From: Candidatus Tayloriibacteriota bacterium
GTDB lineage: Bacteria > Patescibacteriota > Minisyncoccia > Phycocordibacterales > PALSA-1337
Assembly: GCA_003151615.1 (NCBI GenBank)
Contig: PLXZ01000001.1
Location: forward strand, 134,544 to 198,543
Direction of reading: 5' to 3'
Length of the DNA stretch: 64,000 nt
Shown: positions 21,170 to 23,476 of the stretch, in pieces
How the letters are laid out: the number at the start of each line of letters is the position of its first letter
How positions within the stretch are numbered: position 1 is the first letter of the stretch
Position numbers and translations under genes: made by a program
Notes under the pieces: model-generated
What the model was told of the DNA's origin: nothing
Seen by the model: only the letters and a program-made list of their open reading frames with translations
The model's database searches: none

Positions 21170-22177
21170 ATGGAAAAGACCAAATCTCAAATCGTCATAT
21201 ACAAAGATCACAATGGAAACGTAAAAATTGACGTGCGTTTTGACGGCGATACGGTGTGGCTGACGCAGGCCCATATGGCTGAATTGTTCGATAAGGATCG
21301 AAAAACAATTACTGAGCATATCAAAAATATCTTTACGGAGACTGAATTGATCGAGGATTCAGTATGCCGGAAATTCCAGCATACTGCCCCTGACGGCAAG
21401 AAATATATGGTTAATTTCTACAATCTAGACGCTATCATTGCCGTAGGATACCGGGTAAAATCTCCGCAAGGCACAGCATTTCGCCAGTGGGCGACGGCGC
21501 GATTGTCCGAATATGTAGTGAAAGGCTTCGTGCTCGACGATGAACGTCTGAAGAATCCGGATCTGCCATTCGATTATTTTGAGGAATTGACGCGTCGCAT
21601 TGCGGATATTCGCGCGAGCGAGAAACGCTTTTATCGGAAAATCACGGATATTTACGCGACGAGCGTCGATTATGATCCGACCGACGAGCAGAGTATCCTT
21701 TTTTTCAAAACGGTTCAGAATAAGGTTCATTATGCCATTACGGGCAAGACCGCGGCGGAAATTGTTGCGGGAAGAATTGATTCCGGCAAGAAAAATCTAG
21801 GGCTGACTCATTTTCGAGGGGCAAAGCCGACGAAGGACGAGGTTATGATCGCGAAAAATTATTTGAATGAAAAGGAATTGCTGGAGTTGAATAATTTGGT
21901 GGAGCAGTATTTGATTTTTGCGGAAGGGCAAGCCTTGCGTCGCGTGTCGATGAAGATGAAGGATTGGATCGAGAAACTCAACGGATTTTTGACCATTAAT
22001 GACCGCGATATTTTGAAGGACGCCGGCAGAATTTCCCATGAATTGATGAAGGAAATCGCCGAACGGAAATTTGAGGAATATAAGCGGGTGGAAGCGAAAC
22101 AGGATGTCGGTTTTGACGAGGCGGCGCTGAAGGTGGTTGAGGGGGTGAAGGAAATGAAGGGTCGGAAATTAAATTAG
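21170..22177 (+). CDS. RhuM-family protein (virulence-associated, DNA-binding)
   Basis: The N-terminus IVIYKDHNGNVKIDVRFDGDTVWLTQAHMAELF and the following AVGYRV region match the RhuM family from memory. This family is usually found in mobile or accessory islands. Confidence 0.65.
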   Translation: MEKTKSQIVIYKDHNGNVKIDVRFDGDTVWLTQAHMAELFDKDRKTITEHIKNIFTETELIEDSVCRKFQHTAPDGKKYMVNFYNLDAIIAVGYRVKSPQGTAFRQWATARLSEYVVKGFVLDDERLKNPDLPFDYFEELTRRIADIRASEKRFYRKITDIYATSVDYDPTDEQSILFFKTVQNKVHYAITGKTAAEIVAGRIDSGKKNLGLTHFRGAKPTKDEVMIAKNYLNEKELLELNNLVEQYLIFAEGQALRRVSMKMKDWIEKLNGFLTINDRDILKDAGRISHELMKEIAERKFEEYKRVEAKQDVGFDEAALKVVEGVKEMKGRKLN

Positions 22178-22199
22178 GGTTTAATGTTATTATTTAATT

Positions 22200-22679
22200 A
22201 TGGAAAATCTAGAAAAAGGAGCTGAAAACATTGAATCGGAGAAATTAGTTTATCATTTTGATGTGAGACAAAAACATCCCGAGTCAAAAGAACTGTATAA
22301 AAAGATAGGCGACGGCTCCGGTGATTTTGAAAAAATGCTAAAAGAGTGGGCAAATCCTTTTACGGATCTCGATGGGAGAGAAATACTATATAAAGATACT
22401 AAAGCAGGTACTATTCATGTTCGAGAAGAACCTTTTCCTCAATGTACTTATAAAACAGATGGTCACCAGGATTGCGGTTTTTTTTATCAAATTGAAGTCG
22501 ATATAGAATCGAAAGACATCGACATGCAAACTGCGATTCAATTAGTGCAAGAAGCGGCACATGGACGAAGAGTGGATTACTTTGAACTTCAAGAGCAGGT
22601 TAAAGTGGAGGACGGATATTCAATCAAAGAGAAATATCTTGTTGATCCCAAGACATCAAAAGCAAGTCCACACATTTAA
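22200..22679 (+). CDS. Hypothetical protein
   Basis: 159 aa, 23 nt after the RhuM stop, likely co-transcribed. No motif I recognise. Confidence 0.35.
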   Translation: MENLEKGAENIESEKLVYHFDVRQKHPESKELYKKIGDGSGDFEKMLKEWANPFTDLDGREILYKDTKAGTIHVREEPFPQCTYKTDGHQDCGFFYQIEVDIESKDIDMQTAIQLVQEAAHGRRVDYFELQEQVKVEDGYSIKEKYLVDPKTSKASPHI

Positions 22680-23476
22680 AATTTCCCCGTACCTTTCCAT
22701 GAAAGTTCAAAAATCATGCGCATCATGTTGTGAATCGTTTCATCCTCGATGATGATGCCTGTCAAATATTCCTTATTGAGATTAACAACGGCGACTTTGT
22801 TCGTGCCATAAATGGTGATCTCGCCTTTAAAGGGGAATTTCGCGGCTGGAACATAACGGATCTGTGGTACAACCTCCTTTTTGTAGCCGGCAAAGAAGCG
22901 ATCGTTGTAGGTACGGTCTGCTTTTGTATCGGGAATGATGCCACGCGTCGTGATGCCGAGCTTTTCCTTGGTCCGACGGAATTCTTCGAAGAATTTTTTC
23001 GGGAAGACATGTTCGAGCTCGGCCGCATTGGAAAATGCCAACATTTCATATTTTTTGCCGATATCAAGCATATCTCTATATATAGCGAGGATACCGTCCT
23101 GATTTTCGAAATAGAGAACCTTTGGCTTGTTGGAAAGCAGGGAATAGAGGCCTTCGAATTCGGGAATGAGCTTTTGGACCTGTTCCAGTTGTTCATTTGC
23201 CGCCGCAATTTTATTTTTTGCGTAGCGAATGATGTTGTCGGGCTTTTCAATCTGATAATAGAGCTTGTTTTTCTTCTCAATTTCATTGACCAGACCGCGG
23301 ATGGAGAGATCAGTCAGAATTTTGTAGACAGTCGATCGGTTAAGTCCGCAATATTCGGTGATGCGCGACGGGTATGCGCCGCCAAGCTCGAGCACGGAGA
23401 TATAAACCAAAGCTTCTTTGTCCGTGAAGCCCGATTTTTTTAATTTTTCCAAAAAACCTGAATTTTTGATCTGCAT
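22676..23476 (-). CDS. TrmB-family HTH transcriptional regulator
   Basis: Likely start MQIKNSGFLEKL at 23476. N-terminal winged HTH (EALVYISVLELGGAYPSRITEYCGLNRSTVYKILTDL) plus a C-terminal TrmB-like effector domain. Paralogous to 28795..29583. Confidence 0.6.
   Translation of the reverse strand: MQIKNSGFLEKLKKSGFTDKEALVYISVLELGGAYPSRITEYCGLNRSTVYKILTDLSIRGLVNEIEKKNKLYYQIEKPDNIIRYAKNKIAAANEQLEQVQKLIPEFEGLYSLLSNKPKVLYFENQDGILAIYRDMLDIGKKYEMLAFSNAAELEHVFPKKFFEEFRRTKEKLGITTRGIIPDTKADRTYNDRFFAGYKKEVVPQIRYVPAAKFPFKGEITIYGTNKVAVVNLNKEYLTGIIIEDETIHNMMRMIFELSWKGTGKF

What the first reader, a model, noticed from the sequence alone, without database searches (positions are those of the whole stretch)
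21170..23476. RhuM-family gene, an orphan ORF and a TrmB regulator form an accessory island next to the hammerhead cassette and near a tRNA cluster
RhuM-family proteins are characteristic of pathogenicity, defence or mobile islands. Here one is followed by an unrecognised 159-aa ORF, a convergent TrmB regulator and then the ribozyme cassette. The block lies about 2 kb downstream of four tRNA genes, and tRNA genes are classical integration sites. A XerC/D-type recombinase is 5 kb upstream. The arrangement suggests an integrated element or defence-type island.
Basis: inference. Interest (0 to 1): 0.5.

Follow-up and report, generated by a model that had tools for sequence, protein, structure and literature searches.

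The report
RhuM defence gene islet, not island
A 1.6-kb strain-specific insert carrying a RhuM-type candidate anti-phage gene and a rare small protein sits between two core genes of a tiny-genome (Patescibacteria) bacterium, while the neighbouring TrmB regulator belongs to a separate transporter-control module, so this is an ordinary accessory islet and not a classical integrated island.

Summary
All three genes exist as described. RhuM is at 21170-22177 (PF13310, E 1.5e-105; PADLOC PDC-S05, E 1.7e-135). A 159-aa ORF with no family hit is at 22200-22679. A convergent TrmB-type regulator is at 22676-23476. They are not one unit.

A close relative (L049: HU 98%, TrmB 95% aa) has HU and TrmB directly adjacent. 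Window 21086-22693, holding RhuM and the orphan, is replaced there by 71 bp. A second relative (L050) carries a serine recombinase and an IS256 transposase at the same place. The interval from tRNA-Gly(TCC) to the TrmB 3' end is therefore a gene-flux hotspot.

I found no tRNA-derived or junction repeats and no integrase inside the interval. The Xer gene is syntenic housekeeping. RhuM composition is ordinary, and no other defence gene lies nearby. The closest RhuM homologues (80-83%) are solitary genes in four unrelated contexts.

TrmB belongs to another module: divergent promoters, a conserved structured leader, a variable small ORF, hammerheads, and a Peripla_BP_6/ABC operon. TrmB homologues pair divergently with the binding-protein gene in 21 of 60 loci.

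Verdict: an accessory RhuM islet, a new member of a known kind, of low to moderate interest. The neighbouring TrmB leader/variable-ORF slot is the more unusual feature.

The parts
21086..22693 (.). 1,608-bp lineage-specific segment. It holds the RhuM promoter region, RhuM, the orphan and the last ~6 codons of TrmB. In relative L049 it is replaced by 71 bp.
   Evidence: In a global alignment, window positions up to 21085 match L049 positions 1123 and above (93-96% identity). Window positions from 22694 match L049 positions 1051 and below. No repeats lie at the junctions.
21170..22177 (+). RhuM-family gene (335 aa), a single-gene anti-phage candidate of PADLOC type PDC-S05.
   Evidence: PF13310 E 1.5e-105. 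PDC-S05 E 1.7e-135 covering residues 1-327 of a 336-position profile. The closest homologues (80-85% aa) are solitary genes in four unrelated Patescibacteria contexts.
22200..22679 (+). Small protein (159 aa) of a rare family so far seen only in metagenomes. It has invariant Cys82, Cys92 and Gly93, and its function is unknown.
22676..23476 (-). TrmB-type winged-helix regulator (266 aa). It is the first gene of a separate conserved module and is not part of the indel.
   Evidence: PF01978 at 51.6 bits. It is 94-95% identical and retained in L049 and L050. Its homologues are divergent partners of Peripla_BP_6 genes.
23576..23625 (.). Overlapping divergent promoter-like sites. On the plus strand: TTGACA-17-TATGAT with a TG extension (11 of 12). 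On the minus strand: TTGTCA-16-TAAAAT, for TrmB.
   Evidence: Consensus scan. The -35 and -10 boxes are conserved in the seven-sequence alignment A6.
23628..23721 (+). Conserved structured 5' leader RNA (three stacked helices). It matches no Rfam family.
   Evidence: Model R2 finds it in 11 loci. 92% of cells are paired, 8 pairs show compensatory changes, and slid controls reach at most 51%. There is no Rfam hit at E <= 5.
23719..24045 (+). Variable small ORF in the slot (108 aa from this ATG). The 135-aa call from 23638 reads through the leader.
   Evidence: At least 6 unrelated ORF types follow the same leader in 10 loci.
24013..24066 (+). Conserved two-hairpin 3' tail of the slot. It marks the end of homology with L006, L051, L052, L053 and L055.
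   Evidence: 84-91% nucleotide identity. Consensus fold shows 3 compensatory pairs.
24089..24143 (+). Type-III hammerhead 1.
   Evidence: Rfam 42.0 bits, E 6.6e-7. Model R1 76.3 bits. Covariation supports the fold.
24683..24736 (+). Type-III hammerhead 2, directly 5' of the Peripla_BP_6 gene. This position is conserved in L017, L060 and L070.
24760..25875 (+). First gene (Peripla_BP_6) of the liv-type ABC transporter cluster, 24760-32236.
   Evidence: Pfam families. It is 85% identical to the L060 gene, which is likewise preceded by TrmB, leader and hammerhead.
19338..19409 (+). tRNA-Gly(TCC), the left edge of the interval that differs among the window, L049 and L050.
20724..20996 (-). HU, a core gene divergent from RhuM. 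It is directly adjacent to TrmB in L049.
   Evidence: PF00216. 98% aa identity in L049.
13798..14808 (+). Xer-type tyrosine recombinase. It is housekeeping and unrelated to the islet.
   Evidence: XerD, XerC and XerA models score 226-241 bits. NYN-Xer-ExoIII-CCA synteny holds in L007, L014, L019, L026 and L050.

Best explanation
The 2.3-kb stretch is two evolutionary units placed side by side.

Unit 1 (window 21086-22693) is a small accessory islet wedged between the core HU gene and the 3' end of TrmB. It carries a RhuM-family gene and a rare 159-aa protein. RhuM most likely acts alone as a single-gene anti-phage protein of PADLOC type PDC-S05. It has an N-terminal DNA-binding-like region and a RhuM domain, which the literature proposes to be a toxin or effector domain, so an abortive-infection-like action is inferred. 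The orphan is an independent passenger of different origin; its GC3 is far lower. The islet lies in a recombination-prone interval between tRNA-Gly(TCC) and the TrmB 3' end. That interval gains and loses genes in close relatives without a dedicated integrase or att sites, probably through ordinary or illegitimate recombination.

Unit 2 is TrmB. It is the regulator of the divergently transcribed operon: promoter, structured leader, variable small ORF, hammerhead, ORF, hammerhead, then the Peripla_BP_6/ABC transporter.

Shown by the data: gene identities, the empty site, the lack of repeats, the variability of the interval, and TrmB's conserved partnership. Inferred: the direction of the indel (gain versus loss), the defence role of this particular RhuM, and regulation of the operon by TrmB.
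For: Identity of the genes:
- RhuM.
- One PDC-S05 (RhuM-domain) gene reduced plating of T7 and T5 about 1000-fold in E. coli (bioRxiv 10.1101/2024.09.26.614923).
- RhuM was proposed as a toxin domain in R-M/PrrC loci (PMC3710099).

Empty site and hotspot:
- L049 has HU (98% aa) and TrmB (95% aa) adjacent, with 71 bp in place of window 21086-22693.
- L050 (TrmB 94%, CCA 88%) has a serine recombinase and an IS256 transposase between tRNA-Gly(TCC) and TrmB.
- No RhuM or orphan occurs in the 63 TrmB-anchored loci except the orphan in L003.

RhuM acts alone:
- RhuM homologues at 80-83% identity are solitary, between Gmad2 and Sua5, Fic and LeuRS, L33 and unknown genes, and a tRNA synthetase and 2-Hacid_dh.
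- Orphan relatives never neighbour RhuM.
- RhuM GC3 is 0.548 and orphan GC3 is 0.269.

TrmB as a separate module:
- A Peripla_BP_6 gene is the divergent neighbour of the TrmB homologue in 14 of 32 GTDB loci and 7 of 28 metagenome loci.
- L060 shows TrmB, leader, small ORF, hammerhead and a Peripla_BP_6 gene 85% identical to the window's.
Against: - Polarity of the indel is not proven. L049 is a 2.8-kb metagenome contig with an apparent frameshift in TrmB, and it could carry a deletion or be misassembled.
- The orphan lies convergent to TrmB in two different TrmB lineages (the window and L003) and near TrmB on a third contig. That hints at a link with TrmB which this explanation treats as coincidence of a shared hotspot.
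- No experiment exists for any Patescibacteria RhuM. The defence evidence rests on one preprint and one homologue of unknown similarity to this gene.
- The TrmB C-terminal domain matches no known sensor domain, and no operator was defined.
Confidence: 0.72

Rival explanations
1. First reader's model. RhuM, the orphan and TrmB together form one integrated mobile element or defence island that entered at the tRNA cluster, using the Xer-type recombinase upstream.
For: The interval begins at a tRNA gene and is variable among relatives. L050 carries recombinase and transposase genes there. RhuM is a defence candidate.
Against: No tRNA-derived repeat longer than 14 nt occurs anywhere downstream, and no junction repeats exist. 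TrmB and HU are retained in the relative that lacks RhuM and the orphan. Xer is separated from the block by conserved ExoIII, CCA, HTH, tRNA and UPF0102 genes, and it is syntenic in relatives. Only one PADLOC hit occurs among 8 neighbouring proteins. RhuM composition is ordinary.
Confidence: 0.05
2. RhuM and the orphan are ancestral at this site, and L049 and L050 lost them. On this view there is deletion or replacement in the relatives and no insertion here.
For: An orphan-TrmB convergent pair also exists in L003, a different TrmB lineage (64.5% aa identity to the window's TrmB). L049's TrmB appears frameshifted, which suggests decay at that locus.
Against: L060, the close relative of L003, also lacks the orphan at the same junction, so repeated losses would be needed. 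RhuM homologues of 80-85% identity lie in unrelated contexts, which fits gain. The orphan's GC3 is 3 sd below the genes of the window.
Confidence: 0.18
3. RhuM and the orphan form a two-gene system, such as toxin-antitoxin or effector plus sensor. They would be co-transcribed (22-nt gap, no terminator between) and gained or lost together.
For: The two genes are co-directional and 22 nt apart. Both are missing in L049.
Against: None of four other contexts of close RhuM homologues has an orphan relative. None of six other orphan-family contexts has RhuM. PDC-S05 is catalogued as a single-gene candidate, and the preprint's text names only a Virulence_RhuM domain for its PDC-S05 system. The GC3 values of the two genes differ strongly.
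Confidence: 0.06
4. The orphan is functionally tied to TrmB, for example as a co-factor or through convergent-transcription control. RhuM would then be the only true insert.
For: The orphan sits next to TrmB in the window and in L003. Another family member lies 0.7 kb from a TrmB gene. In the window the stop codons overlap by 4 nt.
Against: The closest relatives of both TrmB lineages (L049 and L050; L060) keep TrmB without the orphan. 61 other TrmB loci lack it. Other orphan-family members sit next to ExoIII or a methyltransferase.
Confidence: 0.1

Closest known systems
RhuM family (Pfam PF13310, COG3943) = PADLOC candidate PDC-S05
   Same: The match is full-length and very strong to both models. 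The gene is accessory with a patchy distribution, as expected of defence-type genes.
   Different: The gene is solitary between housekeeping genes of a reduced Patescibacteria genome. It has none of the type I R-M, PrrC or Doc partners described for the family (PMC3710099). No activity is known for this clade.
Integrase-free genomic islets or defence hotspots between conserved core genes
   Same: Fixed flanks (tRNA-Gly/HU and the TrmB 3' end) hold different cargo in each close relative, including mobile-element genes in one.
   Different: The islet is very small, with two genes and only one recognised defence candidate. The comparison rests on three genomes.
tRNA-targeted integrative elements (prophages, ICEs, pathogenicity islands such as Salmonella SPI-3, where rhuM was named)
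   Same: It lies near tRNA genes, carries a RhuM gene and shows variable presence.
   Different: It has no integrase in the block and no att duplication. A core gene (HU) lies inside the interval, and RhuM composition is ordinary.
TrmB/TrmBL sugar-sensing regulators of ABC transporters (Thermococcales)
   Same: It has an N-terminal TrmB wHTH domain and is transcribed divergently from a binding-protein-dependent ABC transporter cluster.
   Different: The C-terminal half matches no TrmB sugar-binding model (NCBIfam 36 bits against a cut-off of 600). The transporter is of the Leu/Ile/Val type (Peripla_BP_6). A leader RNA, variable ORFs and hammerheads lie between the regulator and the transporter.

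Membership tests
RhuM family / PADLOC PDC-S05 | Full-length match to PF13310 above the gathering score | tested here: met
   352.5 bits against a cut-off of 33.7, profile positions 1-248 of 252.
RhuM family / PADLOC PDC-S05 | Match to the PDC-S05 profile over the whole protein | tested here: met
   PDLC04853 E 1.7e-135, residues 1-327 of a 336-position profile.
RhuM family / PADLOC PDC-S05 | Typical (not obligatory) linkage to type I R-M, PrrC or Doc genes | tested here: not met
   Neighbours within +/-10 kb are housekeeping, TrmB and ABC genes. A Fic neighbour occurs in only one homologue context.
RhuM family / PADLOC PDC-S05 | Protection against phage | not testable with these tools
   The only evidence is one heterologous test of another PDC-S05 gene.
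Integrated element at a tRNA gene | Direct repeat of the tRNA 3' end (attL/attR) bounding the element | tested here: not met
   The best non-tRNA matches are 14 nt or shorter with E > 0.05. No repeat family spans the block.
Integrated element at a tRNA gene | Integrase or recombinase gene inside or at the edge of the element | tested here: not met
   None lies between 19410 and 23476. Xer at 13798-14808 is syntenic housekeeping.
Integrated element at a tRNA gene | Absence from close relatives (an empty site) | tested here: met
   The L049 empty site applies to 21086-22693 only. TrmB and HU are retained.
Integrated element at a tRNA gene | Deviant base composition or codon usage | tested here: inconclusive
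   RhuM GC z = -0.3 and GC3 z = +0.7. Orphan GC z = -2.5 and GC3 z = -3.1. TrmB is ordinary.
Defence island | Cluster of several recognised defence systems | tested here: not met
   Of 8 proteins between 17606 and 24597, only RhuM has a strong PADLOC hit.
TrmB family regulators | N-terminal TrmB winged-helix domain | tested here: met
   PF01978 at 51.6 bits against a cut-off of 25.6.
TrmB family regulators | C-terminal TrmB-type effector (sugar) binding domain, or equivalog score | tested here: not met
   No Pfam hit beyond residue ~124. NCBIfam TrmB scores 36 bits against a cut-off of 600.
Hammerhead ribozyme type III (RF00008) | Score at or above Rfam's gathering score | tested here: not met
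   43.3 and 42.0 bits against 48.5.
Hammerhead ribozyme type III (RF00008) | Catalytic core (CUGANGA ... GAAA, GUH site) with three helices supported by covariation, helix III open | tested here: met
   10 homologues, 98% of cells paired, 11 of 16 pairs with compensatory change. Self-cleavage was not tested.

The most novel reading that the evidence does not exclude
The TrmB gene of this finding is the anchor of an undescribed cassette-exchange platform in Patescibacteria. The unit spans TrmB, divergent promoter, a 94-nt structured leader, a replaceable small ORF and a two-hairpin tail (window 22695-24066). It keeps 80-91% nucleotide identity in its non-coding flanks across lineages whose housekeeping proteins are only 40-70% identical. 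It sits in different genomic contexts and swaps the enclosed ORF even between near-identical genomes. Its 3' end is a recurrent capture site for foreign genes: RhuM and the orphan here, EEP nuclease, recombinase/IS256 and a 982-aa gene elsewhere. Hammerhead ribozymes then cut the downstream polycistronic RNA into units of about 590-616 nt.
Probability: 0.2. Interest if true: 0.7.

Novelty: new member of a known kind. Interest (0 to 1): 0.3.

Why it matters
For the finding as stated, it matters little. It adds one more solitary RhuM/PDC-S05 gene. It does show, with an empty-site comparison, that even about-0.6-Mb Patescibacteria genomes keep small integrase-free hotspots where defence-type genes come and go.

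The correction to the annotation has practical use:
- TrmB should be read with the transporter operon, not with RhuM.
- The 135-aa ORF call at 23638 probably reads through a non-coding leader.
- The Xer gene is housekeeping.

The 16-member orphan family, with two invariant cysteines and a confident predicted fold, is a defined target for future work. The side observations are the part that could open a new question. These are the conserved leader RNA without an Rfam family, the variable-ORF slot, and the hammerheads conserved 5' of the binding-protein gene.

Tried and rejected
- tRNA att search. BLAST of all four tRNAs plus 5 nt against the window, and repeat finding over 17.5-25.5 kb and 20.99-22.8 kb, gave only paralogous tRNA matches and short chance repeats. 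A 35-nt AT-rich inverted repeat (20997-21031 with 22173-22207, 71% complementary) was rejected because its left arm lies in sequence conserved with the empty-site relative.
- RhuM in IMG/VR viral contigs: no relative was found with the six peptide patterns used.
- Orphan in JGI metagenome contigs. The 16-sequence alignment was too divergent to make patterns. The 4-sequence alignment gave 68 pattern matches, none confirmed.
- PDB sequence search for RhuM found nothing meaningful.
- Composition as an island signal fails for RhuM and TrmB.
- My first regular-expression scan for hammerheads missed real sites, so I replaced it with a covariance model.
- Literature search for hammerheads in candidate phyla radiation bacteria returned no papers.
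Full report
**Source and observation.**
The window is part of a 562,931-bp metagenome contig (ENA ERZ27254241 k141_1990104). By housekeeping-gene identity, its best-matching relatives in GTDB carry record titles such as Candidatus Taylorbacteria, Parcubacteria and Patescibacteria group. I therefore treat it as a Patescibacteria (CPR) genome.

- RhuM at 21170-22177 (+). It matches PF13310 with E 1.5e-105.
- A 159-aa ORF at 22200-22679 (+). It has no hit in Pfam, PHROGs, PADLOC or NCBIfam.
- A TrmB-type winged-helix regulator at 22676-23476 (-). 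It matches PF01978 at 51.6 bits.

The surrounding features are also as described, with two corrections. Four tRNA genes lie at 18310-19409. A Xer-type recombinase lies at 13798-14808, which is 6.4 kb upstream, not the 5 kb stated. Two type-III hammerhead-like motifs lie at 24089-24143 and 24683-24736. They score below Rfam's gathering score but have E values near 1e-7.

**Are the three genes one unit? No.**
I anchored comparisons on TrmB and fetched 35 loci from GTDB species representatives and 28 from JGI and other metagenomes. A profile of the orphan family and a phmmer search with RhuM found neither gene in any of these 63 loci. The only other locus with the orphan next to TrmB is L003, which was fetched through the orphan homologue.

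The decisive locus is L049. Its HU is 98% and its TrmB 95% identical in amino acids, and it is 88-92% identical in nucleotides. In a global alignment, window positions up to 21085 match L049 at 93-96% identity, and window positions from 22694 onward match again. The 1,608 bp in between are replaced by 71 unrelated bases. That stretch holds RhuM, the orphan and the last six codons of TrmB. HU and TrmB are therefore direct neighbours in L049.

A second close relative, L050 (TrmB 94%, CCA-adding enzyme 88%, ExoIII 85%), keeps TrmB and the tRNA cluster. Between tRNA-Gly(TCC) and the TrmB 3' end it carries two mobile-element genes:
- a large serine recombinase (Resolvase, Recombinase and Zn_ribbon_recom domains);
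- an IS256/Mutator-family transposase.

L049 also has a different 184-aa ORF where the window has the serine hydrolase and a 151-aa gene. The interval from tRNA-Gly(TCC) to the 3' end of TrmB is therefore a hotspot of gene turnover, and RhuM plus the orphan is its cargo in this genome.

**Is it a classical integrated element? No.**
- BLAST of each tRNA against the whole window gives only the paralogous tRNA pairs and chance matches of 14 nt or shorter.
- Repeat searches find no direct repeats that bracket the block or the indel junctions.
- No recombinase lies between 19410 and 23476.
- The Xer gene sits in a NYN-Xer-ExoIII-CCA block that recurs in L007, L014, L019, L026 and L050 at 58-80% identity. 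It scores as XerD, XerC or XerA. It is the housekeeping dimer-resolution enzyme.
- RhuM (GC 0.454, GC3 0.548) and TrmB are compositionally ordinary for the window. Only the orphan deviates (GC 0.369, GC3 0.269, z = -3.1).
- Of eight proteins around the block, only RhuM has a strong PADLOC hit. This is not a defence island.

**What RhuM is.**
The protein matches PADLOC's PDC-S05 models over its whole length (E 1.7e-135). Thousands of homologues exist. The 120 best are 71-85% identical (one longer outlier at 60%). The few that carry a source name are called 'virulence RhuM family protein' or, wrongly, 'hydroxyacid dehydrogenase', and come from Patescibacteria-type MAGs (Paceibacterota, Taylorbacteria, Pacebacteria), one from candidate division WOR-1.

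Four independent contexts of the closest homologues (80-83%) show a solitary gene between unrelated housekeeping genes:
- Gmad2 | RhuM | Sua5;
- Fic | RhuM | LeuRS;
- L33 | RhuM | two genes of unknown function;
- a class II tRNA synthetase | RhuM | 2-hydroxyacid dehydrogenase.

None of these contexts has R-M genes or an orphan relative. In the literature, RhuM-like proteins were proposed to be toxin domains occupying the place of Doc in R-M/PrrC loci (PMC3710099). One PDC-S05 gene with a RhuM domain lowered plating of T7 and T5 about 1000-fold and T4 about 10-fold in E. coli (bioRxiv 10.1101/2024.09.26.614923). No solved structure is related by sequence. The best-supported function is a stand-alone anti-phage or toxin-type gene. 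For this particular gene that remains an inference.

**What the orphan is.**
It has one close homologue (57% identity) among 5.8 billion proteins. An exhaustive profile search found 14 further relatives at E <= 1e-10. Cys82, Cys92 and Gly93 are invariant, and the family shares an FDIRQKHP ... DCGFFxQIE signature.

Family members lie in several contexts:
- next to PNP_UDP_1 and TrmB (L003);
- ExoIII | orphan | 94 aa | TrmB | CCA;
- convergent with ExoIII (L046);
- next to a methyltransferase.

No member lies next to RhuM. L003 and its close relative L060 share 89-91% nucleotide identity in TrmB. They repeat the pattern seen for the window and L049: the orphan is present at the TrmB 3' junction in one and absent in the other. 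I read it as a small accessory protein that frequents the same hotspots. A functional tie to TrmB cannot be excluded.

**What TrmB belongs to.**
A Peripla_BP_6 gene is the immediate divergent neighbour of the TrmB homologue in 14 of 32 GTDB loci and 7 of 28 metagenome loci. In the window the same partnership exists, but 1.28 kb lies between the two genes.

The elements in order are:
1. Overlapping divergent promoters. The plus-strand site is TTGACA-17-TATGAT, 11 of 12 matches.
2. A 94-nt leader at 23628-23721.
3. A small ORF.
4. A two-hairpin tail at 24013-24066.
5. Hammerhead 1.
6. A 151-aa ORF.
7. Hammerhead 2.
8. The Peripla_BP_6/permease/ATPase cluster at 24760-32236. This cluster contains a second TrmB-like gene at 28795-29583.

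Locus L060 shows the same order, with a binding protein 85% identical to the window's. TrmB is thus best explained as the local regulator of this operon. Only its N-terminal domain matches the TrmB family.

**Side observations on the TrmB module.**
Homology between the window and the more distant genomes L006, L051, L052, L053 and L055 starts at 22695 and ends at 24066. Nucleotide identity is 78-91% in most of these (67% in L055's TrmB-leader stretch), and it includes non-coding sequence. The housekeeping proteins of those genomes are only 38-86% identical, and the module sits between Xer and ExoIII there.

The body of the ORF between leader and tail is replaced. Ten leader-bearing loci hold at least six unrelated ORF types, one of them a receiver-like 'KILVVDD' family. 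Even L049 starts a different ORF after the leader.

The leader folds into three stacked helices. 92% of cells are paired, eight pairs show compensatory changes, and slid controls reach at most 51%. That alignment was fitted to the model, which favours the structure. The leader matches no Rfam family at E <= 5.

The hammerheads are well supported. Ten copies occur in seven loci, with 98% of cells paired and all six helix-I pairs covarying. One copy always lies directly 5' of the binding-protein gene (window, L017, L060, L070). L021 has three copies 616 and 588 nt apart, compared with 594 nt in the window.

**Verdict.**
It is wrong on the unit, because TrmB is not part of it. It is wrong on the mechanism, because there are no att sites and no island integrase. 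It is also wrong on the scale, because this is one candidate defence gene and not an island.

The finding is a new member of a known kind and of low to moderate interest. The more unusual biology lies next door in the TrmB leader/variable-ORF/hammerhead architecture.

Noticed in passing
window 23628-23721 (+); also L006 3388-3482, L049 23-116, L051 2148-2240, L053 7757-7848, L054 972-1065, L055 1171-1261, L060 6260-6354 (all minus strand): A conserved 94-nt structured 5' leader RNA follows the TrmB-divergent promoter. It has three stacked helices, 92% of cells paired and 8 compensatory pairs, and matches no Rfam family at E <= 5. It may be an undescribed cis-regulatory RNA. The 135-aa ORF call from 23638 reads through it, and the real start is probably ATG 23719.
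   Followed up: partly
window 23719-24066; L006 2887-3390; L051, L053, L055 and L060 equivalents: The ORF between the conserved leader and a conserved two-hairpin 3' tail (window 24013-24066) is of at least 6 unrelated types in 10 loci. It differs even between the window and L049, whose flanks are about 90% identical. Contigs L049 and L050 both end at the leader. This looks like a cassette-replacement slot.
   Followed up: partly
window 22695-24066 compared with L006, L052 and L053: The module from TrmB through promoter, leader and tail is 78-91% identical in nucleotides to genomes whose CCA enzyme, Xer and ExoIII are only 38-67% identical. In those genomes it sits between Xer and ExoIII. This suggests horizontal exchange of the module or unusually strong constraint.
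   Followed up: partly
window 24089-24143 and 24683-24736; L017 9676-9730; L060 5776-5830; L070 797-844; L054 302-354; L003 4406-4456; L021 5540-5591, 6156-6207 and 6744-6795: Type-III hammerheads punctuate the TrmB-divergent operons. One copy is always directly 5' of the Peripla_BP_6 gene. Successive copies are 588-616 nt apart in two unrelated loci although the enclosed ORFs are unrelated. The ORFs at window 23638-24045 and 24142-24597 have the poorest codon-usage fit of the region (z = -1.9 and -1.5).
   Followed up: partly
window 20724-20996 (HU) and 32261-33790 (RNase Y): HU and RNase Y are direct neighbours in L018, L037, L053 and L064. In the window they lie 11.3 kb apart, bracketing RhuM, the orphan, TrmB, the hammerhead cassette and the whole ABC cluster. 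That larger block may itself have been placed between them.
   Followed up: partly
L050 923-3481: A large serine recombinase and an IS256/Mutator transposase occupy the tRNA-Gly(TCC) to TrmB interval in a close relative, and HU is missing from that interval.
   Followed up: partly
L003 17-1532; L006 1203-2021 and 4481-5185: Other cargo lies next to TrmB modules in relatives. L003 has a Beta_protein (PF14350) gene with a P4 cII-like gene. L006 has a Bro-N domain protein and an extra endonuclease/exonuclease/phosphatase-family gene. All are accessory-type genes.
   Followed up: no
window 28795-29583 (-): A second TrmB-like HTH gene is embedded in the ABC transporter cluster. The same arrangement (a PBP gene, TrmB2, then a permease) recurs in L020, L021, L040 and L076.
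   Followed up: no
window 22178-22206: A weak Rfam hit to CRISPR-DR66 (23.8 bits, E 0.64) falls in the AT-rich RhuM-orphan spacer. It is a single copy, so I take it as chance.
   Followed up: no
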